DNA from: a virus
DNA length: 64,000 nucleotides
Reading direction: 5' to 3' (one strand)
IMG/VR virus record: IMGVR_UViG_3300036939_000021
Coordinates: 41,885-105,884 of that record
Position 1 is the stretch's first letter. The number at the start of each line of letters is the position of its first letter. Below, piece by piece: positions 254 to 51,786 of the stretch. A program made the position numbers and the translations under genes. The notes under the pieces were generated by a model, which did no database searches, was not told the origin of the DNA, and saw nothing but the letters and a program-made list of their open reading frames with translations.

Positions 254-973
254 ATGTCAGTTATTCAACAATGGCAGGGATCGGATATAAGATTTGAGAC
301 GCGTAAGGATGGACGTGTTTGGGGATGCCTTACAGATATGGCACAAGCAACAGGCAAACTAGTAGCCGATTATCTACGTCTTGTATCTACCCAAGATTAT
401 TTACAAGCTTTATCAGATGATATGGGAATCCCCATAGCTAACATACTTTATGCTATTCCAGGTCAAAAAACAGGAACTTGGGCTATTGATGAAGTAGTAA
501 TAGATTTTGCACAGTGGTGCAATGTAAAGTTTCGGATTTGGGTGAATCGTGTTATTCGGAGTTTGATTATAGAGAAATCAGCATCATTTTTAGATGATTC
601 TGTAGAAGAAAAAGCTTTATCGATGATTAGCAATTTAATTAATCAGATGGAAGCAAGTGTGAGTGATCCGTTAGCTGTTAGTCGTTATGGTAAGGCTATT
701 GATGTTTTGAATGTAACATTACATCGTAATCAAACGGCAATGTTAAAGGATATCAAAACTAACTCTGTTTCTGATTTCTTAGAACAACACGTAGAAGAGT
801 TTAAAGGAGAGAAGATGATAGCGAAAGACTTGTATCACAGTTATTGCCGTTTTTGCTTAAAAAATAAATATACAAAAGAGACATTAACATCTTTTGGTAA
901 ATATGTTAGTACAGTGTATGAAAAACATCGTACAAATAAAGGAGTAATTTATTTAGATATGCGGTTAAAATAA
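254..973 (+). CDS. KilA-N domain protein with C-terminal primase-type winged-helix domain
   Basis: CLTDMAQATGK..DYLRL..TQDYL..GTW..FAQWC..F.IWV KilA-N signature; C-terminus LYHSYCRFC..FGK..RTNKGVIY resembles the primase C-terminus ending at 56630. Confidence 0.85.
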   Translation: MSVIQQWQGSDIRFETRKDGRVWGCLTDMAQATGKLVADYLRLVSTQDYLQALSDDMGIPIANILYAIPGQKTGTWAIDEVVIDFAQWCNVKFRIWVNRVIRSLIIEKSASFLDDSVEEKALSMISNLINQMEASVSDPLAVSRYGKAIDVLNVTLHRNQTAMLKDIKTNSVSDFLEQHVEEFKGEKMIAKDLYHSYCRFCLKNKYTKETLTSFGKYVSTVYEKHRTNKGVIYLDMRLK

Positions 974-1006
974 AAATTGAAATGCGGTTTTTTGTCAAGT
1001 ATACAA

Positions 1007-1038
1007 ATCTGACTTTCCCAGAGGTCAGATTTTTTTTT
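1007..1038 (+). terminator. intrinsic terminator
   Basis: TCTGAC..GTCAGA stem followed by a T run; near-identical copy at 2221-2250. Confidence 0.75.
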
Positions 1039-1047
1039 AATATTTTA

Positions 1048-1086
1048 TTGACATCTTAGATTTTTATTACCATAATAGAGGAGTCG
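1048..1086 (+). promoter_or_regulatory. phage early sigma70-type promoter (repeat family)
   Basis: TTGACA-17-CATAAT then AGAGGAGTCG. Confidence 0.85.
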
Positions 1087-1111
1087 AAAGAGAAAGCTAA
1101 GGAAAACCAAA

Positions 1112-1333
1112 ATGAGCTTATACATTAAGAATGCTGACCCTCTTTTATTTGTCTATGAGACTAGCGATCCAGAATCGGGAGAACCTGATTATCTTTTGAC
1201 TACAACTTGCCCTTGTCTGGTAGGAAAGACTTCAATAGAACAAGCGATTATTCGAGATTCGTATGTAAATGAAACGGATGAAGATGAAGAAAAAGGAATA
1301 GCTTTAGTTTCTGAATGGCTTAGAACACACTAA
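1112..1333 (+). CDS. hypothetical early protein
   Basis: ORF with AAGGA RBS downstream of early promoter. Confidence 0.7.
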   Translation: MSLYIKNADPLLFVYETSDPESGEPDYLLTTTCPCLVGKTSIEQAIIRDSYVNETDEDEEKGIALVSEWLRTH

Positions 1334-1395
1334 GAAATTTTCAATAATTCCAGGGATGCATCTACTAGGACAAAACACATAACTAAGGAAAAAAG

Positions 1396-1656
1396 ATGAC
1401 ATATATACCACAAAAAATAATAGTCATAGATTTATATGGATCAGGATATGCTGTCTTAATAGATGCTAAGAGAGAACATGAAAAAGTTTGGTTTTCACAT
1501 TCAGGTTTAACAGCTTGTGTAAGGAATAGACATCGAGTCAATGGGATTATAGAAAAAACAAGAATGAAAAATCCCAATATAGAGATTATTGAACACTATC
1601 ATGATGGACATAATGAATATATGCCATTAACTGAAGAAAGCAGACGTATTTTATAA
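1396..1656 (+). CDS. hypothetical early protein
   Basis: ORF with AAGGA RBS, preceded by intergenic repeat. Confidence 0.7.
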   Translation: MTYIPQKIIVIDLYGSGYAVLIDAKREHEKVWFSHSGLTACVRNRHRVNGIIEKTRMKNPNIEIIEHYHDGHNEYMPLTEESRRIL

Positions 1657-1708
1657 ATTATTAGAATGCATATACTAAGACAAAAAACCTCACATGGAAT
1701 AATTCAAA

Positions 1709-1966
1709 ATGACAACGACACAACAGACAGAACAAGATCAAGCAGAACATTACAAACGGTTATTTAACAAGTTTGCTGAAGGTGTCATAATGCTTTACAA
1801 ACAAGCACTTGTTCTAAAAACACCTGAAGCATATCGATTCTGGAACTTACGAGAAGAAAACCTCTACAAGCAAATTACAGAGAATTTGAATGAGACAGAC
1901 AAAAAGGAATTGCTCCGAATTCTGGTAATTGCTAATGAACGAGCGGTCAAAGTAATTCGTAAGTAA
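1709..1966 (+). CDS. hypothetical early protein
   Basis: ORF preceded by intergenic repeat and GGAATAAT motif. Confidence 0.7.
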   Translation: MTTTQQTEQDQAEHYKRLFNKFAEGVIMLYKQALVLKTPEAYRFWNLREENLYKQITENLNETDKKELLRILVIANERAVKVIRK

Positions 1967-2025
1967 TTTAATAATAAAAATTAGGGAGCATCTACTATTA
2001 AAAGTGAACACCCAATGGAATAATC

Positions 2026-2211
2026 ATAAAATTTGCAAAATTAGCTCTAGGTTTAACTCTTACGTTTTCTATCATTGTTGGTAATATTTATATTGTTGTA
2101 AAACCTTTGATAGCTTCTGAGACTCAAAGTTAGTGTAAAAAAGAAAAATCTAGTCCTTGTCCTGGTATGGGTAGGAGAGAGTACAATAGAATGATGTTTT
2201 CTTTTTCTTAG
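2026..2211 (+). pseudogene. degenerate secreted small peptide gene (signal peptide + PatX-like GxGRR C-terminus)
   Basis: ATA at the expected start, then KFAKLALGLTLTFSIIVGNIYIVVKPLIASETQS*CKKEKSSPCPGMGRREYNRMMFSFS*; in-frame TAG at 2131-2133. Confidence 0.5.
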
Positions 2212-2220
2212 CTACCACAG

Positions 2221-2250
2221 TCTGACTTTTTATCAGGTCAGACTTTTTTT
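2221..2250 (+). terminator. intrinsic terminator
   Basis: TCTGAC..GTCAGA stem + T7. Confidence 0.75.
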
Positions 2251-2471
2251 GTTTTAAATATTTTAATATTTTACTAATTTAGACTTTTCTAGAAGCCTCA
2301 ATAATATTGGATAAGGGAATAGGTCATTTTCTTTATTTTTAAGGCTCTAGAGCCATTCTAGAGGGCACCTAGAAGATTAGAAAAGTCTGCTAGCTTTCGA
2401 GATTTTTCGAAATTTATATATTTTCTAATAAAACAAAACAAAAAAAAATGGGGGATAGCTCCCCCAAGTCT

Positions 2472-2825
2472 TTATTCTTTTGTTTCCATCCAGTCTGCTA
2501 GTTTGGCTTTTCCTCCTTTTTTAATTATTCTCGTGTATTCTTTGTATTTTTCTTTGTCAGCTTTGCAAATTTCGGTCAAGTCTTTCAGAGTCATTTTAGA
2601 GAAGTTTGTCGGTTTTTCTGGAGGACTTTCTATAGGAATAATTTCTTGTTTTGGTTCTGGTTTTTTGATGATTTCTTTTGGCTTTTCTTCTGGTGTGTAG
2701 GGCTTGACTGGTGGACAGTAAGTAGCCATCCAGGTTATGTGAGAGTGGTAGAAAGCATGAGCGATGATTCCAGAGAATCCTATGATTGCAATAGACTCGA
2801 TTGCTGAGGTGAGAAGTGCTTGCAT
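2472..2825 (-). CDS. membrane-anchored protein with C-terminal HeH/Rho-N-like domain
   Basis: N-terminal hydrophobic segment, Pro/Lys/Glu linker, NFSKMTLKDLTEICK...KAKL motif. Confidence 0.6.
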   Translation of the reverse strand: MQALLTSAIESIAIIGFSGIIAHAFYHSHITWMATYCPPVKPYTPEEKPKEIIKKPEPKQEIIPIESPPEKPTNFSKMTLKDLTEICKADKEKYKEYTRIIKKGGKAKLADWMETKE

Positions 2826-2906
2826 TGTCTATTTCCTTAGATTTTCTTAGCTAGGCGATTTAGAGAGGTTTTAGAGCTTTTTGAGGCGTCGCTCTTTTTC
2901 TTCCCT

Positions 2907-2943
2907 ACTCTTCTATTTTATTAATAAAAATCTAAGATGTCAA
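2907..2943 (-). promoter_or_regulatory. phage early promoter (repeat family)
   Basis: minus strand TTGACATCTTAGATTTTTATTAA-TAAAAT-AGAAGAGT. Confidence 0.85.
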
Positions 2944-3028
2944 TAAATATAATATAAAGTTTTTATGAATAATTTTTTTTAAACTAATAGATTCACGATA
3001 AGATATTAAAAATAGATTTGATGAATAA

Positions 3029-3775
3029 ATGGTTGAATTATTAAAAGATCCATATTTTCGAGTACAACTAGATAAAGATGCAAGTTCACCTAATCCGGAA
3101 GCTGCGATATGGAATGCACAACATATTTGTGTAGCTGAGAAAGATTCTTATCATGATCAGCTACCTTTAGAACCTGGAAAAGCAATAATAAAACATCAAT
3201 TAGAAGGTGGAAAGGGTCACTATTCAGTAGCTGCTTTTGCTTTTGCAAAAATAGATTTTTATGGTTTCTCGCATGATGCTATTATGCAGATGAGAACTCA
3301 TCACACTAGTGGTAGTGATGTAAGATTTCTAGTACAAAGTTCTCGTTATACTTCTCAGAGATTTATAGATGTAGCTGAAGGAAAACTAAAACCAGAGGAA
3401 GTATTTTATTGGCGTCCTTTAGGAAAATATACAAGTCGTAATGGTTGGTATGAAAATAGTGATTTAGTACAGAATATTTTTTATGAGCAATGTAGAGAAA
3501 ATTGTAAAGTCTATGCTGATTTAGTTTTAGAGTACAATCAACCTTATGAACAGGCAAGAAACGTACTTTCACAAGGAATACGACAAGATTTCACAATAGC
3601 AGCAACGTTAAAAGGATTTTGGCATTTACTCGATCAAAGAACAAAAAAAGATTCTCAACTAGAAATTCAAACTTTAGCAGAAATGTTACAGCAAGAATTA
3701 GAAAAATGGTGTCCTACACTTTCTTATTGGTACAGAGAGAATCATATTAAAAAATCTAAGAAATTATTACCTTAA
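3029..3775 (+). CDS. thyX: FAD-dependent thymidylate synthase
   Basis: GHYS, QMRTH...VQSSRY, EQARNVL, R..KDSQLEIQ ThyX motifs. Confidence 0.9.
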   Translation: MVELLKDPYFRVQLDKDASSPNPEAAIWNAQHICVAEKDSYHDQLPLEPGKAIIKHQLEGGKGHYSVAAFAFAKIDFYGFSHDAIMQMRTHHTSGSDVRFLVQSSRYTSQRFIDVAEGKLKPEEVFYWRPLGKYTSRNGWYENSDLVQNIFYEQCRENCKVYADLVLEYNQPYEQARNVLSQGIRQDFTIAATLKGFWHLLDQRTKKDSQLEIQTLAEMLQQELEKWCPTLSYWYRENHIKKSKKLLP

Positions 3776-44447: not shown

Positions 44448-45350
44448 TTAAAAATTAAATTCTTTATCGAGTGATTCTAGATAATGCTGAATCTCTTCAT
44501 TAGATGGTTTTAAGCTGTCTCGATCACTAATAATTTTAAACTGCGTAGTTGCTTTAGATTTTGATGTTCCTAATTGTGGCAGGTCTAAAGCTAATTTAAC
44601 CTCATGACACGCTAACCAAATGCTATGAGTTAAAGAAGGCTTACGTCCTAAACTTAAAGCACCGTCATAATAATAAGCAGCTAACTCTTCAGCACGTCCT
44701 ACAGCGTGTATTTGTAAAGCTTCTGGTATGTGATTACGTCCTATTTGGATAATGCCATTTATTACAGGCATTGATCGTAATTTATCAGCGGTTGTACCAA
44801 GTAAAAACTGATAAGTCATATTAGTATACTTGGCATAAGCTCTTTCATCGTGTCCACAATGAGCTTTAATTACATCTGTAAAACTTCTACGGTGAATCTT
44901 ACGTTTAGCTCTTTCTTCTTCCCAGGTGCCTATAATAAACTTTTGATGATCTGTTAAATCTACTGGCTGATTATCTTTAATACCTATTTGATATCCAGCC
45001 ATCCGATAAAGGAATTGGTTAGCACCTGCATCGATCATCTCATCAAATAACTCTGGGTTATCTTTAGCTAACCAACGTCCCATAATCTTTGCTGGTATTA
45101 AAATAACCTGAGATGATCCTTTACCAATACCATGTTGAATGCTTGCTTTCACTAACTTTGTGAATTTTTTCACAGTGCCCTCAAACTCATTTATATCAAT
45201 AGTTTCAAGATTTTGACAACGTTTAGTTACAGTAGTACGATCAATATTTTGCCAACGTGAATAACTAGATTGTGTACAAAAAGCTTGACCATTATTTAAA
45301 ATTACTACTTCAAGACCAGAATCACTGCGAGAATATGTTAAACTAGACAT
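44448..45350 (-). CDS. antirepressor-like DNA-binding protein
   Basis: G.AF..QS.Y.R HTH-like start; GAN.FLY.MAGY; RRSFTD.IK...YA.YTN..Y..L.G. Confidence 0.55.
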   Translation of the reverse strand: MSSLTYSRSDSGLEVVILNNGQAFCTQSSYSRWQNIDRTTVTKRCQNLETIDINEFEGTVKKFTKLVKASIQHGIGKGSSQVILIPAKIMGRWLAKDNPELFDEMIDAGANQFLYRMAGYQIGIKDNQPVDLTDHQKFIIGTWEEERAKRKIHRRSFTDVIKAHCGHDERAYAKYTNMTYQFLLGTTADKLRSMPVINGIIQIGRNHIPEALQIHAVGRAEELAAYYYDGALSLGRKPSLTHSIWLACHEVKLALDLPQLGTSKSKATTQFKIISDRDSLKPSNEEIQHYLESLDKEFNF

Positions 45351-45507: not shown

Positions 45508-47127
45508 TTACCGTCTAGTAAAAACCCATAAGTCCTCAGATGCTCTTGTAATAGCCGTATAGAGCAATCGATATATCACCGAATTATTCTCGTATGGCGT
45601 TAGATTAGGATTGCGAGAGAAGCAATCCGCATAGTTGTAAAAGACTTTATTAAGTGTCGTTCCTTGGGATTTGTGGACAGTAATTACCCAAGAACTATAA
45701 AGCTTATTTGTTACTTTGTATGTTTTATTACCGTCTTCAAAACAATAAGGTTTGTCTGATTCTGCTGTCCAATGCTGAAACTCAAATTGTGTATTAAAAG
45801 TATTATTGAGCAAAGATTTATATTTTACTAAAATAGGTTCTGGTATTCGATATTGTTTCCAAAAATCAAGGACATATTGCATAAATCTTGCATAAGCTTT
45901 ACGTTGAGAATCTGTAAGTACTGCTACCTCATATTCTCTACCTTTATAAGTTAGAGTAAGCAAGCAATATTCAATACATATTTGAGGTTCCCAATATTGA
46001 AAATATTTTAAAAATTCAGCATGATTATTAGATCTTGTTAAAGGAGAGAAAAAATAATGCTCTTTTATTTCGCAAGATTTTACATAAAAATCCTCAGAGT
46101 TTGCTAAACGTTTTCTTGCTTTATCACGCTCATCTACTAAATATTTTGTTTTATTTGTTTGTTCTTCTGTCCGTCTAGATACCCAACTTAAATCAAATAG
46201 TTCTAAATGTTTAGTCAAACTATAATAAGCATGAAAAGGTTGATGACTGAAAAGACACTCACCAGGTACATACTGGAATAATGCTGTTTCCCCATAGACA
46301 GCTGTTCTAATAAGAGTTGAAAATGTTTCTAGTGTTCGGCGTTTATAGACAAGCATTCTTAAATAATCCGGGCGAGGATTACCCATAAAATTTGCTTCCT
46401 GTAAAGCCATATGTAAGAAGTCAGCAAACCAGTGAGAATTCTCCGGTGCTACTTTTTCCTTACAAACTGTTATGGATTCTACTGATTTAGGGAATACATA
46501 AGCGTAATCTATTTCCTCATTTTCTATGCGTTCTCTAATACGAGAAGCTGTTTTTAAAATATTTCCTTGATATCTTACTATTCCCTCTAAATAAAATACT
46601 TTTTTAATTTGTCTAAAAGGTGCTGAAACTCTATTCTCTTTGACTGGATATAATTGATAAGGATCACCAATAAATAATAATTTACCTTTTATAGATTCCA
46701 TAATCATTTCAAAAAGCAAATTATTAATCATGCTTGCTTCATCTACAAAAACATAATCATATAAACCATACGGTCTTGTTTCTACAGGATCAGACGTAAA
46801 TTCTAATTCAGAATCGTCTTCCTCTTCTTCTGTGGGAATAGATTTTAAAAATTTATGAATAGTACCTAGTGCTATAGTTTTATACTGAGGTTTTCCTACT
46901 AATTTATTAATATTAAATTGTGATAATTTTTCTTCTAAAACTCTTACAGCTTTATTTGTTGGAGCGCTAACACCTATAAGAGCATCAGGATCTTTATCTA
47001 AAATATCGTCTATTAAAGTTGCAACTAGAAAGGTCTTACCACTACCAGCAGCACCTATAAGAGTACCTGTACCTTCTAGTTGAAAAAACCATTCTCTAGC
47101 TTGCTGCTGACTTTCTGTAAGTTGCAT
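45508..47127 (-). CDS. Dda/RecD-like SF1B DNA helicase
   Basis: GAAGSGKT, APTNKA, TIH, VDEASM, GDPYQL.PV, ITVHKSQG.T, LYTAITRA. Confidence 0.92.
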   Translation of the reverse strand: MQLTESQQQAREWFFQLEGTGTLIGAAGSGKTFLVATLIDDILDKDPDALIGVSAPTNKAVRVLEEKLSQFNINKLVGKPQYKTIALGTIHKFLKSIPTEEEEDDSELEFTSDPVETRPYGLYDYVFVDEASMINNLLFEMIMESIKGKLLFIGDPYQLYPVKENRVSAPFRQIKKVFYLEGIVRYQGNILKTASRIRERIENEEIDYAYVFPKSVESITVCKEKVAPENSHWFADFLHMALQEANFMGNPRPDYLRMLVYKRRTLETFSTLIRTAVYGETALFQYVPGECLFSHQPFHAYYSLTKHLELFDLSWVSRRTEEQTNKTKYLVDERDKARKRLANSEDFYVKSCEIKEHYFFSPLTRSNNHAEFLKYFQYWEPQICIEYCLLTLTYKGREYEVAVLTDSQRKAYARFMQYVLDFWKQYRIPEPILVKYKSLLNNTFNTQFEFQHWTAESDKPYCFEDGNKTYKVTNKLYSSWVITVHKSQGTTLNKVFYNYADCFSRNPNLTPYENNSVIYRLLYTAITRASEDLWVFTRR

Positions 47128-47157: not shown

Positions 47158-47186
47158 ACTATATGCCTAAAAATGCAATATGTCAA
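47158..47186 (-). promoter_or_regulatory. phage early/middle promoter
   Basis: TTGACA-17-TATAGT. Confidence 0.8.
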
Positions 47187-47191
47187 TAAAA

Positions 47192-47551
47192 TTATTTTCT
47201 TAAAACATCTCGAATAGTACCAAGTATATCTGAGATACTGTAAGGCTTAGTAATATAACGATCAGCACCTAATTTAAAACCTATTTTTTGATCTACATAA
47301 CGAACGTGAGCAGAAACAAAAATAAAAGGTGTTTTTGGATATAATTCTTTTGCTTCAGTTATTACGTTATATCCTGTAATACCTGGCATCGTTATATCAC
47401 AAAGTATTAAATCAAATTCTTTTTTTCTTATTACATCAATTGCATCACGTCCACCAGATACAGATACTACCTCGTATCCCTCCATTTTTAAAAGTTCTTC
47501 TAAAGCAAACCTATTACCCTCGTCATCTTCAACAACTAAAATTACACACAT
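47192..47551 (-). CDS. single-domain response regulator (CheY-like receiver)
   Basis: ILVVEDD, DLILCDITMPG (phosphoacceptor Asp), FVSA, GADRYITKPY. Confidence 0.93.
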   Translation of the reverse strand: MCVILVVEDDEGNRFALEELLKMEGYEVVSVSGGRDAIDVIRKKEFDLILCDITMPGITGYNVITEAKELYPKTPFIFVSAHVRYVDQKIGFKLGADRYITKPYSISDILGTIRDVLRK

Positions 47552-47814
47552 TTCTTTTTAAAAATTACTATATTTTTCTCTTCTATTTGCTTATTCTTTT
47601 GTTCTAAAATTTGTAACTCTTTTTCAAACGATTGCTCTATAATATCTAAATGTTTTTGTATTTGTTCTGAAGTAAGTTTTCCTGAATCTAAGTATTTTTT
47701 TAAAATAGCTACAGATGTTAAACCGGAAGTTATCACATTTCTAGATTCATGATTACGTGCTTGTATAAGTTGCAAAGGACATTGTTCCTCGTATTCGCAA
47801 TTTATCTTAATCAT
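47542..47814 (-). CDS. stand-alone histidine kinase DHp (HisKA-like) protein without ATPase domain
   Basis: NHESRNVITSGLTSVAILKKY...L.SEQIQKHLDII matches the H-box helical hairpin; overlaps the receiver gene by 10 nt. Confidence 0.7.
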   Translation of the reverse strand: MIKINCEYEEQCPLQLIQARNHESRNVITSGLTSVAILKKYLDSGKLTSEQIQKHLDIIEQSFEKELQILEQKNKQIEEKNIVIFKKKCV

Positions 47815-47900
47815 GATTTTGCTTAAGTGAATATTATATCAAGTCTATTGCAAAATAATTATTATTTATCTCAATCGCTCGATAGTTGTTATTTAAAAAA

Positions 47901-50000
47901 TTACCAGTTAACACCAGACCAATTATGTTTTACTATCATTTGTTCCCAAGTCTCTTCAGGTTCATAATCTGGTATGTAATACTGCATTTCTTCAGTTATT
48001 ACATCAACGGCTATAGGTGCTATCTCAGGTAATAATTCTTTTCTAATCTCTAACATCAAAGAATCATGAGAAAAATTTACAAGATGTGCATTATCTATTC
48101 CCCAAGTAAACTGACATAACTCATCTATTATTCCAAGTGAGTTTTTCATAACCGTTGCTTCAGGTCGTAACCATTGACAAGAAACAACATCAGAAATTTT
48201 TAATTTATATTTTGTTTGTCCATACCAGTTTTCTTGTGCTTGCGCTCTATGCCAAATAAGACCTCCATCTAATGTTTCAGAATATCCGAATACTCCTAAA
48301 CAATCTTGATTACCTGTTAGTTTATTATCAATATAAATAGTTTCTAGAGTATTCTGAGCTTTAGCGTAAATGCCATCCTGGAATAATCGCAAATCTTCGT
48401 AAGCTTCAGCACAAGCTTCTAAATAATTTTTACAATCTTCAAGACTTACAGAAAGTTCATAACCATAAAAAGATTGTTGAAGCCTAGCACCTCCAGAATA
48501 GTTTAAGAAAGAGTAAATTACAGTTTTAGCTAATTTATAAAGATGTTTATAGTGAGATTGTTTATTTGAAGGTTTTTCTACTAATTCCTTTGCCTCTAAC
48601 GGTGTTACCGTTAAATCTTCAAACTTAAGCATTGCGGCTAAAGTAATGTAATGTAATTTAATTCCCTCTTTTTTTGCTTTCTGAAGATTTTTATCATTAC
48701 TAAGAATACGTGCAAACTGTAAATGACTTGCTGCTAAATCTATTTCTAAAAGTTGATAACCAGGTCTAGCTGATACTATAGAACGTACTGGTGGAAGATT
48801 TTGCGATTGATGACTTGGAAGATGTTTACTAAAATTTTGAGTGTTATGTAAATGCTTATCTCTTTTAGAGCCACTGGAACTTCTTCCCATTCCTTGAGTA
48901 GCAAGAATAGAAAACGTAGTTTGAATACATTTTCTATTTCTATCTAAAGTATCTATATAACCTTTAATTGTTGATGCTGCACGATTTATACCACGAAAAT
49001 TAATAAGTTCTCTTATCTCATAATCATCAGGAAATTTCTCTGTAATAATATAGAGATTTTCCTTACCACTAGATTCTTTCCATTCTTTAGTTTTAGTATC
49101 AAATTTTAAAAGCATATCCTCACCAAATTTATTACGAATGTAATATCTAATCTGATCAGGACTGTTAGGGTTAAATACAGAGGGCTTAGGTATCTTTATT
49201 GGTTGACCTTTTTTACCTAAAATAGGATTCTTCCAATATTCTTGTATTTTCTCTCGTTGACATGGATTTTCTGGTAATAATTTCTCTAATTTTTCTTTTA
49301 AATATTGAGCAGCTTGTTGATAACCTTCTAATACAAATTCAGCTTTTCTAATATCTCCTACAGGTAAACCCTGATGAATAAGTTCTATAAAAGCAGGTAT
49401 GCAAGACATCTCTGCTTCTAATACTTCTTTTTGTGATATTACTAATTCTTTATACTGAGCATCACCTATTTTATATGTTACTATTGCATCTTTACCCGCA
49501 TACATAAACTGTTCATCTGATAATTCCAGTTGTGACCAGTCACTCTTCTGATATTGTTTATCATGAATATATCCATATTCTTCGCACAAATACTCTAAAC
49601 TATTAGAATTTTGTATCCCTAGCTCATATACATAACCATCATATCTTCCAGCTTTTAGAATTTGAGACATTAATCTAGTGTCTCTAATATTTCTAATTTT
49701 TATGTTATATTTTGCCCTAAACCATAAGGCGTCAAATACAGCATTCTGAATATACTTAACAACTTTAGGATTATCAAGAACTTGTAATAATTTTTGAAAC
49801 CATATTTCTTGTTCTTCGGTCATAAACCACAAATCTATTATGGCTACTTGCGCTATTTTTGGTAAATATATTTGCACCAATCTTAAGTCATCTACATAAG
49901 CATTTAATCCCGTTGTTTCAGTATCTAATGCTAATTCTGGAGTATCGAGAATACTAAGATTAGACCAATCTTGGAATAATATAACTTTAAGTTCTTTCAT
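47901..50000 (-). CDS. polA: family A DNA polymerase with 3'-5' exonuclease
   Basis: LDTETTGL, NAVFD, DT, YA..D exonuclease motifs; FNPNSPDQ, GRSSS, EIDLAASH, AKTVIYSFLNY, SHDS polymerase motifs (divergent). Confidence 0.9.
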   Translation of the reverse strand: MKELKVILFQDWSNLSILDTPELALDTETTGLNAYVDDLRLVQIYLPKIAQVAIIDLWFMTEEQEIWFQKLLQVLDNPKVVKYIQNAVFDALWFRAKYNIKIRNIRDTRLMSQILKAGRYDGYVYELGIQNSNSLEYLCEEYGYIHDKQYQKSDWSQLELSDEQFMYAGKDAIVTYKIGDAQYKELVISQKEVLEAEMSCIPAFIELIHQGLPVGDIRKAEFVLEGYQQAAQYLKEKLEKLLPENPCQREKIQEYWKNPILGKKGQPIKIPKPSVFNPNSPDQIRYYIRNKFGEDMLLKFDTKTKEWKESSGKENLYIITEKFPDDYEIRELINFRGINRAASTIKGYIDTLDRNRKCIQTTFSILATQGMGRSSSGSKRDKHLHNTQNFSKHLPSHQSQNLPPVRSIVSARPGYQLLEIDLAASHLQFARILSNDKNLQKAKKEGIKLHYITLAAMLKFEDLTVTPLEAKELVEKPSNKQSHYKHLYKLAKTVIYSFLNYSGGARLQQSFYGYELSVSLEDCKNYLEACAEAYEDLRLFQDGIYAKAQNTLETIYIDNKLTGNQDCLGVFGYSETLDGGLIWHRAQAQENWYGQTKYKLKISDVVSCQWLRPEATVMKNSLGIIDELCQFTWGIDNAHLVNFSHDSLMLEIRKELLPEIAPIAVDVITEEMQYYIPDYEPEETWEQMIVKHNWSGVNW

Positions 50001-50343: not shown

Positions 50344-51786
50344 TCAACCTAAATACATCTCTATTGTTTGCTCATTTAATCCCAAAACTTTAAGAGCTTT
50401 TTGTTTCGTATTCACTCCTATTTTTTTATGCTCAATAATACGTTTTACCTTTTTTTGGTGAAGCATATTTGTTGATTCCATAATTCTTTTAATATATTGC
50501 CAGTCGTCTAGTTCCTCTTTATACTCTACTAATTCTCCGTCTACTTCTATTGGTGCTTCTCTTTTTTCTCGTTTTTCTGGAATAATTAACCACTCATTTA
50601 AAGTTCCACATTCACATAATTTTTTATAGCCTTCTTCTCCTTTCATTACTACAACATTTTTAAAAACTAAAGGTAAACCACATCCAGAACATTTAAGCTT
50701 TTCTGGACTTCCTTTAGTTGTTATATCAGGGAATAATGAGTATTCTCGTTGAAATCTAGGACTACCATGAAAATGAGCATTTCCAGCATGATCTAATATT
50801 GTTAGCCTCTTACCATTAGGCTTTGGTCTTAGACCTCTACCCCATATCTGAGTAAGCAATCCAGGACTACCCACAAAGCGCTGTAAGCTCAAGCAAGACA
50901 CCAATGGAATATCGATACCCTCGGTAATTAGAGAGACATTTACAAGTCCTGTAAGCTCACCATAAAGATATGATTCCAGTGTGTCTCTTCTTTGTGTAGC
51001 TGTAAGAGTACTGCCGATATATGCAAACTTATATTTACCATCAAAATAAGTATTAAATTTTTCTACAATAGCGTAGCAATGCTCAGTGGTTGTTGCATAT
51101 ACTAATGTTTTTTCTCCTAATGCAAATCGTTCCCACTCTTTACAAGCATCTGCTATCAACTCGCCTCTATTGAAGTGTAAATCTTGTTCGACTAAATCAT
51201 CTTTAGAACTCTTAGCTTTGTAATCTGTTTTCCAAGATTTCAAATAATAATCAGCTAAATATCCTTGATCTATAAACCAACCAATATCATTATTTTCATA
51301 AGAATTTATATAATCATAATAATGTCCTAAAGGTTGTCCGTCAGTACGCTCTGGAGTAGCTGTATAACCAATATGCCAAGCATTAGGAAAATATTTAAGA
51401 ATTTTTGAATAGGTGTTAGATGGTGATCGATGAATCTCATCACCTATAACAATGTCATACTCTGGAATAACATCAAGACGGTTAGCAATACTTTTATAAA
51501 CACCAATACTAATTTTATTAAAAGTATTTTCTTTACCCATACCTAATCGGCTAACAAAAGGTTTTAAATAAGGTTTAGGTGAAGTAATACGTGCATATAG
51601 GTCTTCTACAAGCTCCCCCATAGGCACAACTATCAAAACACTTAAACCTTTTTTATAGGCATCCCATACATTTTTTGTTATTAAAGTTCCTTTTCCTGTA
51701 CCAGTTGGTAGTAGTTGTAAAACTTTTTTACCTTGTAGTTCCCAAAGTTTTGTATCTATTGCAATTTGATAATCTCTAAGCTTCAT
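50344..51786 (-). CDS. SF2 DEAD/DEAH-like helicase with C-terminal zinc ribbon
   Basis: LRDYQ, PTGTGKG, DEIHR, TATPERTDG, EGIDIP, Q..GRGLR; promoter at 51813-51841. Confidence 0.92.
   Translation of the reverse strand: MKLRDYQIAIDTKLWELQGKKVLQLLPTGTGKGTLITKNVWDAYKKGLSVLIVVPMGELVEDLYARITSPKPYLKPFVSRLGMGKENTFNKISIGVYKSIANRLDVIPEYDIVIGDEIHRSPSNTYSKILKYFPNAWHIGYTATPERTDGQPLGHYYDYINSYENNDIGWFIDQGYLADYYLKSWKTDYKAKSSKDDLVEQDLHFNRGELIADACKEWERFALGEKTLVYATTTEHCYAIVEKFNTYFDGKYKFAYIGSTLTATQRRDTLESYLYGELTGLVNVSLITEGIDIPLVSCLSLQRFVGSPGLLTQIWGRGLRPKPNGKRLTILDHAGNAHFHGSPRFQREYSLFPDITTKGSPEKLKCSGCGLPLVFKNVVVMKGEEGYKKLCECGTLNEWLIIPEKREKREAPIEVDGELVEYKEELDDWQYIKRIMESTNMLHQKKVKRIIEHKKIGVNTKQKALKVLGLNEQTIEMYLG

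What the first reader, a model, noticed from the sequence alone, without database searches (positions are those of the whole stretch)
47192..47814. Phage-encoded minimal phosphotransfer module: ATPase-less HisKA protein coupled to a single-domain receiver
Seen: a 90-aa ORF with an H-box-like helix (NHESRNVITSGLTSVAILKKY...QKHLDII) and no room for a HATPase or sensor domain overlaps by 10 nt a 119-aa receiver that keeps all catalytic residues (EDD, phospho-Asp in CDITMPG, Ser in FVSA, Lys in KPY) and has no output domain. The pair sits between the DNA polymerase and the Dda-like helicase. Known: DHp domains determine kinase-regulator specificity and can act as phosphotransfer or phosphatase scaffolds; single-domain receivers can act as phosphate sinks. 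Inference: a two-gene phosphate drain or decoy that heterodimerises with, or siphons phosphoryl groups from, a host histidine kinase to rewire host signalling during infection.
Basis: partly seen in the sequence, partly recalled or inferred. Interest (0 to 1): 0.85.

Follow-up and report, generated by a model that had tools for sequence, protein, structure and literature searches.

The report
Phage kinase-less DHp protein plus receiver
A phage carries a conserved two-gene module, a 90-residue relic of a histidine kinase that keeps only the phospho-histidine helical hairpin, coupled to a CheY-like receiver; related phages add their own kinase, so it looks like a stripped-down viral signalling switch and not a broken host gene.

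Summary
ORF 47542..47814(-) (90 aa) overlaps by 10 nt ORF 47192..47551(-), a 119-aa single-domain receiver (Pfam Response_reg, 96.5 bits) with all catalytic residues.

The 90-aa protein has no Pfam HisKA hit of its own. It belongs to a small family of 8 sequences (77-97 aa), found only in viral or metagenomic DNA, with an invariant N-H-x-x-R-N motif. Several lines point to a diverged HisKA/DHp hairpin:
- Two members touch Pfam HisKA (best E 5e-5, below cut-off).
- Profile-profile P is 5e-6, with the His in register.
- The family HMM scores 32 bits on a canonical stand-alone HisKA.
- The AF2 hairpin's top PDB matches are HK853 chains.

Every family member I could see in DNA sits directly upstream of a receiver. 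dN/dS is 0.03 for the DHp gene and 0.16 for the receiver gene.

New here: three complete related phages also carry a divergent full kinase whose H-box keeps the kinase residue (H+1 Asp) but has Leu at the phosphatase position (H+4). The small protein keeps H+4 Asn and varies at H+1. This window's complete genome has no kinase.

Best reading: a dedicated DHp partner that removes phosphoryl groups from the receiver, with input from outside the pair. The scan has noted only this same stretch before, not other DNA.

The parts
47542..47814 (-). Gene for a 90-aa stand-alone DHp (HisKA-like) protein. Predicted helix 14-41, loop 42-48, helix 49-78. H-box N21-H22-E23-S24-R25-N26. Conserved C-terminal tail around I82 and F85.
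   Evidence: ORF. Family of 8 with invariant N21 H22 R25 N26 S34 L38 E50 Q51 L56 I59 E71 N74 F85. hhalign against 30 HisKA domains: P 4.8e-6, His in register, controls lower. Pfam HisKA touches on P0014 and P0013. AF2 core pLDDT 89-96. Top Foldseek PDB hits are HK853.
47192..47551 (-). Gene for a 119-aa single-domain receiver (CheY-like, OmpR-type sequence) with E8/D9, phospho-acceptor D52, S80, switch Y99 and K102-P103. No output domain.
   Evidence: Pfam PF00072 at 96.5 bits. PDB alignments to RegX3 and YycF. Alignment of five phage receivers keeps E8 D9 D52 A81 K102 P103 Y104, with S/T80 and Y/F99. It is the only receiver in the complete genome.
47542..47551 (-). 10-nt overlap: the receiver's ATG lies inside the last codons of the DHp gene, suggesting translational coupling.
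   Evidence: In relatives the two genes are 4-18 nt apart on the same strand. In Acidobacteriota the analogous pair is 12 nt apart or overlaps by 14 nt.
47815..47900 (-). 86-nt spacer between the DNA polymerase stop and the DHp start. It holds only a weak promoter-like match, so the pair is probably read with the replication genes.
   Evidence: 9/12 match at 47842..47813; no terminator-like site between 46900 and 48100.
47901..50000 (-). Context: family A DNA polymerase with 3'-5' exonuclease, upstream on the same strand.
   Evidence: Pfam DNA_pol_A_exo1 1.5e-25 and DNA_pol_A 1.1e-9.
45508..47127 (-). Context: SF1 (RecD/Dda-like) helicase, downstream on the same strand, with its own strong promoter-like site at 47186..47158.
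   Evidence: Pfam AAA_30, AAA_19 and UvrD_C_2. TTGACA-17-TATAGT, 11/12.

Best explanation
The 90-aa protein is a diverged histidine-kinase DHp domain with no ATPase and no sensor. It most likely forms a homodimeric four-helix bundle that docks the co-translated receiver on the face carrying His22 and Asn26. There it takes the phosphoryl group off receiver Asp52, either by hydrolysis positioned by Asn26 or by back-transfer to His22. In effect it is the receiver's dedicated 'off' enzyme. The receiver is the output: a CheY-like single domain with intact S80/Y99 switch residues that would bind an unknown phage or host target depending on its phosphorylation. The 'on' input comes from outside the pair. 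In related phages it is a phage-encoded kinase that keeps the kinase residue (H+1 Asp) but has Leu at the phosphatase position (H+4). In this phage, which has no kinase, it must be a host kinase or a small phosphodonor such as acetyl phosphate. Shown: homology, fold, conservation, synteny, selection, and the complementary motifs. Inferred: dimerisation, docking, phosphatase chemistry, the source of phosphoryl groups, and the output.
For: 1. DHp identity.
- hhalign of the family against 30 HisKA domains gives P 4.8e-6 (score 33.2) with His22 on the phospho-His. Reversed gives 9.3, and 40 column shuffles reach at most 24.4. With 8 sequences the score is 31.0 against at most 16.4 in 60 shuffles.
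- Pfam HisKA scores E 5.4e-5 on P0014 and 0.009 on P0013.
- The family HMM scores 32 bits on a canonical 88-aa HisKA and 16.8 bits on a full kinase, with His in register.
- The AF2 hairpin core has pLDDT 89-96. Foldseek ranks 1-3, 5-7 and 9 are HK853, prob 0.94-0.99, rmsd 2.6-4.4 A.
- ESM Atlas neighbours include a 100-aa cluster that is all HisKA.

2. Partnership with the receiver.
- A receiver lies directly downstream in all five loci where DNA could be read: the window, L002, L003, L095 and L096. P0022 and receiver P0003 come from contigs of identical length, 26,527 bp.
- The phage receivers form one clade (SH-aLRT 81).
- The L096 receiver is 45% identical to the window's, more than any cellular receiver found.
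- G000 and G003 share only 5 proteins, and two of them are this pair.

3. Selection. dN/dS is 0.03 (DHp), 0.16 (REC) and 0.09 (HK).

4. Phosphatase reading.
- H+4 Asn is invariant, while H+1 is E/F/M/N/Y/Y/T/Q.
- Willett & Kirby 2012 (PMC3510030) show that H+1 acid is needed only for kinase activity and H+4 Thr/Asn only for phosphatase activity. They also state that the EnvZ and NtrB DHp domains alone suffice for phosphatase activity.
- The phage kinases in two lineages that are 39% identical read AHD[LV][RK]L, with H+1 Asp and H+4 Leu.

5. Receiver as output. S/T80 and Y/F99 are kept and there is no FATGUY motif (PMC9981736).

6. No kinase in this complete genome.
Against: - The window protein itself does not reach any Pfam HisKA score, and no family member reaches the curated cut-off.
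- A two-helix hairpin is a generic fold, and the Foldseek E-values are only 0.4-1.
- Strict invariance of His22 fits a phosphotransfer role better than pure hydrolysis. The His is helpful but not essential for HisKA phosphatase activity (PMC3510030).
- The window's own member keeps H+1 Glu, so trans-phosphorylation of His22 cannot be excluded.
- Only four or five lineages exist, so the motif complementarity rests on few independent observations.
- No target for the receiver is known.
- No biochemical data exist.
Confidence: 0.5

Rival explanations
1. Spo0B/ChpT-like histidine phosphotransferase. The receiver is phosphorylated by a phage or host kinase, passes the phosphoryl group to His22 of the DHp dimer, and His22 passes it on to a host response regulator. 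This would be a phage-inserted relay that feeds into or drains a host pathway.
For: - His22 is invariant in all 8 members.
- In an Acidobacteriota genome, a stand-alone HisKA lies between a hybrid kinase's C-terminal receiver and a REC-GGDEF-EAL regulator. That is the layout expected of a relay.
- The window member keeps the complete H-E-x-x-N motif.
- HK-like RedE accepts phosphoryl groups from a receiver (PMC2755868).
Against: - Each complete phage genome (G000, G003, G004, G309) has exactly one receiver, so the second acceptor would have to be a host protein.
- The receiver keeps the allosteric switch pair typical of terminal regulators and lacks the FATGUY motif of receiver-only intermediaries.
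- There is no Spo0B-like C-terminal domain.
Confidence: 0.2
2. The DHp-only protein heterodimerises with, or competes for the regulator of, a host histidine kinase, and the receiver soaks up host phosphoryl groups. Together they shut down a host pathway during infection.
For: - This complete phage genome has no kinase.
- Phage proteins that bind host kinase domains exist: PIT4 (PMC10714779).
- Phage phiCDHM1 carries the kinase AgrC without a regulator (PMC4124054).
- The receiver resembles OmpR-family receivers.
Against: - No cellular kinase has a DHp close to this family. A full HMMER scan of 1.84 billion proteins found only small viral or metagenomic homologues, so there is no sign of mimicry of a particular host kinase.
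- Relatives pair the module with their own kinase.
- The two genes co-vary as a unit across otherwise unrelated phages, which points to each other as partners.
Confidence: 0.12
3. The small protein has lost phospho-chemistry. It is only a helical binding partner (anti-receiver, adaptor or chaperone) of the receiver, or a coiled-coil protein unrelated in function to kinases.
For: - There is no Pfam hit for the window protein.
- The H+1 acid is lost in most members.
- The conserved C-terminal tail (N74, I82, F85) has no counterpart in the HisKA model.
Against: The residues that stay invariant are exactly the H-box ones (N-H-x-x-R-N), under strong purifying selection. A mere binding helix would not need them.
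Confidence: 0.1

Closest known systems
Isolated DHp domain ('domain A') of EnvZ and the DHp of NtrB
   Same: A DHp hairpin without the ATP-binding domain, with His and H+4 Thr/Asn. Reported to be sufficient for phosphatase activity on the cognate regulator and to give a constitutive phosphatase phenotype in vivo (as summarised in PMC3510030).
   Different: Those are laboratory fragments of full kinases. Here the truncated form is the natural gene, is conserved in several phages, has lost the H+1 acid in most members, and falls below the Pfam HisKA cut-off.
RedCDEF of Myxococcus xanthus (kinase RedC, kinase-like RedE, single-domain regulator RedF)
   Same: A kinase phosphorylates a single-domain receiver, and a separate kinase-like protein that cannot autophosphorylate removes the phosphoryl group (PMC2755868). 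This matches the HK + DHp-only + REC triad of G003, G004 and G309.
   Different: RedE is a full-length kinase-like protein and needs a second regulator (RedD). The phage protein is 80-97 aa and each phage has one receiver. This window's phage has no kinase at all.
Spo0B / ChpT histidine phosphotransferases
   Same: DHp-type helical bundle with a phosphorylatable His and no autokinase activity, acting on a single-domain receiver.
   Different: Spo0B and ChpT carry a C-terminal pseudo-ATPase domain and shuttle between two receivers. Neither feature is present in the phage genomes.
Stand-alone HisKA genes upstream of REC-GGDEF-EAL regulators in Acidobacteriota
   Same: A protein of 77-88 aa that is only HisKA, directly upstream of or overlapping a receiver-containing gene. 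The phage family HMM scores 32 bits against it.
   Different: The bacterial proteins have the canonical S-H-E-[LF]-R-T-P box (Pfam 55 bits), and their partner has output domains. The phage family is divergent and pairs with a receiver-only protein. I found no functional study of either.
Phage proteins that touch two-component signalling: PIT4 of phage LSL4, AgrC of phiCDHM1, PHROG kinase and receiver families
   Same: Phage-encoded interference with, or copies of, two-component parts (PMC10714779, PMC4124054). The receiver and the relatives' kinase hit PHROGs of unknown function.
   Different: PIT4 is not a DHp homologue. phiCDHM1 carries a full kinase. No PHROG, GenBank phage record or paper found here contains the DHp-only protein.

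Membership tests
HisKA / DHp domain (Pfam PF00512) | Score above the curated Pfam gathering cut-off (26.9 bits) | tested here: not met
   The window protein has no HisKA hit at E up to 1. The best family member, P0014, scores 23.6 bits at E 5.4e-5, and P0013 scores 16.4 bits.
HisKA / DHp domain (Pfam PF00512) | Detectable profile homology with the phospho-acceptor His in register | tested here: met
   hhalign P 4.8e-6 and 1.5e-5, above all reversed and shuffled controls. The family HMM scores 32 bits on a canonical HisKA protein and 16.8 bits on a full kinase, with His aligned.
HisKA / DHp domain (Pfam PF00512) | Two antiparallel helices (hairpin) with the His on helix 1 | tested here: met
   AF2 with the family alignment gives helices 14-41 and 49-78, with pLDDT 89-96 for residues 31-70. 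HK853 chains top the Foldseek list. Weak E-values are expected for a 70-residue hairpin.
HisKA / DHp domain (Pfam PF00512) | Conserved H-box: His, H+1 Glu/Asp, H+4 Thr/Asn | tested here: inconclusive
   His and H+4 Asn are invariant in 8 sequences, and H+3 Arg is also invariant. H+1 is Glu only in the window protein and is F/M/N/Y/T/Q elsewhere.
HisKA / DHp domain (Pfam PF00512) | Homodimeric four-helix bundle; phosphorylatable His | not testable with these tools
   No multimer prediction or biochemistry was available.
Complete sensor histidine kinase | HATPase_c catalytic domain on the same protein or in the genome | tested here: not met
   The protein is 90 aa. There is no HATPase_c in the complete 105,884-bp genome, while controls were positive in 14 of 14 genomes.
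Response regulator receiver (Pfam PF00072) | Score above the cut-off and the catalytic set: acidic pair, phospho-Asp, Ser/Thr, Tyr/Phe, Lys-Pro | tested here: met
   96.5 bits against a cut-off of 30.2. E8 D9 D52 S80 Y99 K102 P103 are present and conserved across five phage receivers.
Single-domain (CheY-like) response regulator | No output domain | tested here: met
   The protein is 119 aa, and the receiver profile covers residues 4-113.
Spo0B/ChpT-type phosphotransferase | C-terminal pseudo-ATPase domain and two distinct receiver partners | tested here: not met
   No residues beyond the hairpin and a 12-residue tail. One receiver per complete phage genome.
Dedicated aspartyl-phosphate phosphatases (CheZ, CheX, Spo0E, Rap) | Sequence membership in those families | tested here: not met
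   No such Pfam or NCBIfam hit at E up to 1 and 0.01 respectively.

The most novel reading that the evidence does not exclude
A group of phages carries a three-part version of two-component signalling in which the two opposing activities of a normal bifunctional kinase are split into separate genes. One is a kinase-only enzyme (H+1 Asp, H+4 Leu). The other is an ATPase-less DHp that is phosphatase-only (H+4 Asn, no H+1 acid). Both act on one CheY-like receiver. The phage in this window has shed the kinase, so its receiver's phosphorylation now reports a host kinase or the host acetyl-phosphate pool. That would let the virus read host physiology to time replication.
Probability: 0.25. Interest if true: 0.75.

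Novelty: new variant of a known kind. Interest (0 to 1): 0.62.

Why it matters
Natural stand-alone DHp proteins have been listed only as 'incomplete kinases' and, as far as my searches show, never studied. Here one is conserved under strong selection, always beside a receiver, in phages that otherwise share almost nothing. If the motif complementarity holds, it is a natural experiment. It would separate kinase and phosphatase functions of the HisKA domain into different polypeptides and give a minimal 90 + 119 residue system for studying DHp-receiver recognition. It would also show that viruses run their own His-Asp signalling, or tap the host's, during infection. Such behaviour is documented for quorum-sensing receptors but hardly at all for two-component phosphotransfer.

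Tried and rejected
- Word-based protein search and pattern scans with the single 90-aa sequence found nothing. The family appeared only with the exhaustive HMMER scan and the profile search.
- A PDB sequence search gave only coiled-coil noise: myosin VI and NEMO.
- The single-sequence AF2 model plus Foldseek was uninformative.
- tblastn of three family members against 50,697 GenBank phage records found no match.
- The metagenome pattern scan with the alignment found none.
The Logan contigs holding P0011, P0012, P0014, P0022 and P0003 could therefore not be read, and their synteny is untested.
- Host inference failed. Cellular receiver relatives are 40% identical or less and come from many phyla. 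The relatives' kinase has only 23-34% hits. The helicase has no IMG/VR relatives. The window has no tRNAs.
- I tested whether the FHA-like and membrane coiled-coil genes next to the kinase in L002 match the FHA and membrane genes at 57055-58061 of the window. There is no detectable similarity, so I dropped the link.
- The tape-measure proteins of G000 and G003 are unrelated.
- I considered a pseudogene or fragment of a host hybrid kinase and rejected it. Reasons: intact ORFs in all lineages, dN/dS of 0.03-0.16, and no close full-length relative among 1.84 billion proteins.

Full report
**1. What is in the sequence**

The window is the right-hand 64 kb of a complete 105,884-bp viral genome with direct terminal repeats (IMG/VR record). 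GC content is 32.6%.

On the minus strand, a family A DNA polymerase (47901..50000) is followed after 86 nt by a 90-aa ORF (47542..47814). That ORF overlaps by 10 nt a 119-aa ORF (47192..47551). After 64 nt containing a strong promoter-like site comes an SF1 helicase (45508..47127).

The 119-aa protein is a full-length receiver domain (Pfam Response_reg, E 1.4e-27, 96.5 bits). It carries E8/D9, D52, S80, Y99 and K102-P103 and has no output domain. By sequence it is closest to OmpR-family receivers and to Spo0F and DivK.

**2. Is the 90-aa protein a DHp domain?**

On its own it gives no Pfam HisKA hit, no PDB sequence hit and no word-based homologues.

An exhaustive HMMER scan of 1.84 billion representatives found four small homologues. 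A profile search added two more. With the near-identical P0021, this makes a family of eight sequences of 77-97 aa, all from viral or metagenomic DNA.

The alignment has these invariant residues: N21, H22, R25, N26, S34, L38, E50, Q51, L56, I59, E71, N74 and F85. The H-box therefore reads N-H-x-x-R-N.

Evidence that this is a diverged HisKA:
- Two members touch Pfam HisKA below the cut-off (E 5.4e-5 and 0.009). A source annotates P0013 as a signal transduction histidine kinase.
- hhalign of the family against 30 HisKA domains that I cut from two Bacteroidota genomes gives P 4.8e-6 with His22 on the phospho-His. The reversed alignment gives P 0.37, and the best of 40 column shuffles gives 2.8e-4. 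With eight sequences the score is 31.0, against at most 16.4 in 60 shuffles.
- The family HMM scores 32 bits on a canonical 88-aa HisKA-only protein and 16.8 bits on an ordinary kinase, both with the His in register.
- AF2 with the family alignment predicts a hairpin (helices 14-41 and 49-78) with pLDDT 89-96 in its core. HK853 chains take ranks 1-3, 5-7 and 9 of the Foldseek PDB list.
- ESM Atlas neighbours at 0.97 include a 100-aa cluster that is entirely HisKA.

I put the DHp identity at about 0.85. It is not a Pfam-threshold member.

**3. Is the pair a unit?**

In every locus I could read, a receiver follows the small gene on the same strand. These loci are the window, L002 and L003 (complete 67-kb phages G003 and G004), L096 (complete 107.7-kb phage G309) and L095 (a fragment).

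P0022 and the receiver P0003 (65% identical to the window's) come from Logan contigs of identical length, 26,527 bp.

Further points:
- The phage receivers form one clade among 36 receivers (SH-aLRT 81).
- The L096 receiver is 45% identical to the window's, more than any cellular one found.
- G000 and G003 share only five proteins by BLASTP, and two of them are this pair.
- Between G003 and G004, dN/dS is 0.03 for the DHp gene (14 synonymous, 2 non-synonymous changes), 0.16 for the receiver and 0.09 for the kinase.

All three were tested and none was met.

**4. What the surroundings add**

G003, G004 and G309 each carry, divergently transcribed right next to the small gene, a 456-459-aa histidine kinase (HATPase_c E 1.2e-19, a weak HisKA hit). 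Each of these genomes has exactly one receiver.

The two kinase lineages are 39% identical, yet both read A-H-D-[LV]-[RK]-L at the H-box. So H+1 is Asp and H+4 is Leu.

Willett & Kirby (PMC3510030) showed for four HisKA kinases that the H+1 acid is needed only for kinase activity and the H+4 Thr/Asn only for phosphatase activity. They also summarise that the DHp domains of EnvZ and NtrB alone are sufficient for phosphatase activity.

The phage kinases therefore look kinase-only. The small proteins (H+4 Asn invariant, H+1 variable, no ATPase) look phosphatase-only. This complementarity is the main new point. It rests on two kinase lineages and eight small proteins.

The window's genome has no HATPase_c and no other HisKA or receiver.

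**5. Mechanism**

Best reading (0.5): the small protein is the receiver's own DHp partner and removes its phosphoryl group. The receiver is the output, since it keeps S/T80 and Y/F99 and has no FATGUY motif (PMC9981736). Phosphoryl input comes from the phage kinase in relatives. In this phage it would come from a host kinase or acetyl phosphate.

Rivals:
- A Spo0B-like relay to a host regulator (0.2). The invariant His favours it, as does the layout of a bacterial locus, hybrid kinase then HisKA-only then REC-GGDEF-EAL. The single receiver per phage counts against it.
There is no close cellular DHp, and relatives carry their own kinase.
- A binding-only protein (0.1).

**6. Relation to known things**

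Bacterial counterparts exist. Two of the 301 sampled Acidobacteriota genomes have a 77-88-aa canonical HisKA-only gene directly upstream of, or overlapping, a REC-GGDEF-EAL gene. 'Incomplete kinases' lacking HATPase are catalogued (bioRxiv 10.64898/2026.02.27.708494).

The closest studied analogues are:
- isolated EnvZ and NtrB DHp domains;
- RedE/RedF of Myxococcus (PMC2755868);
- Spo0B and ChpT.

Phage links to two-component signalling are known for PIT4 (PMC10714779) and for AgrC of phiCDHM1 (PMC4124054). PHROGs hold kinase and receiver families of unknown function. No PHROG, GenBank phage record or paper I found contains a DHp-only protein.

**7. Verdict**

This is a real, conserved and selected module. 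I class it as a new variant of a known kind.

Still unknown: the host, the receiver's target, and the role of the conserved C-terminal tail. With a permissive hhalign setting, the tail lines up with the K-I-E-S-G-K-L-E-L stretch at the DHp-ATPase junction of kinases.

Noticed in passing
L002:6557-7927(-), L096:6571-7950(-), L095:3712-5091(-): Phage-encoded 456-459-aa histidine kinases, divergent from the DHp-only gene. Their H-box reads AHD[LV][RK]L, so the phosphatase-determining Thr/Asn at H+4 is Leu in two lineages that are 39% identical.
   Followed up: partly
L092:1444-1710(+) with 1723-3183(+); L094:703-936(+) with 923-2419(+): Acidobacteriota genomes with a canonical stand-alone HisKA protein of 77-88 aa, directly upstream of or overlapping a REC-GGDEF-EAL gene. 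One has a Ser/Thr kinase upstream, and the other has the end of a hybrid kinase. This is a bacterial counterpart of the phage pair.
   Followed up: partly
window 47542-47580 (C-terminal residues 74-90 of the 90-aa protein): A conserved tail, N-x-Q-V-E-x-G-N-I-L-I-F-R-K-K in the family consensus, modelled at low confidence. It resembles the K-I-E-S-G-K-L-E-L stretch at the DHp-ATPase junction of kinases. Its role is unexplained.
   Followed up: partly
window 47399-47401 (Cys51 of the receiver): The residue just before the phospho-accepting Asp is an invariant Cys in all five phage receivers (C-D-[IV]). I have no explanation.
   Followed up: no
window 47158-47186(-): A near-consensus promoter-like site, TTGACA-17-TATAGT, lies between the receiver stop and the helicase start. 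The region as a whole has no more promoter-like sites than its shuffles.
   Followed up: no
window 44448-45350(-) and 50344-51786(-): Apart from the DHp-receiver pair, these are two of only three further proteins with BLASTP similarity between G000 and the 67-kb phage G003 (35% over 127 aa; 23% over 342 aa).
   Followed up: no
window 57055-58061(-) and L002:5689-6541(+): Both phages have an FHA-like gene overlapping a membrane coiled-coil gene. In L002 this gene pair abuts the kinase. The proteins show no detectable sequence similarity, so a link to the signalling module is not supported.
   Followed up: yes
window 1-64000: ARAGORN finds no tRNA or tmRNA genes in the window.
   Followed up: yes
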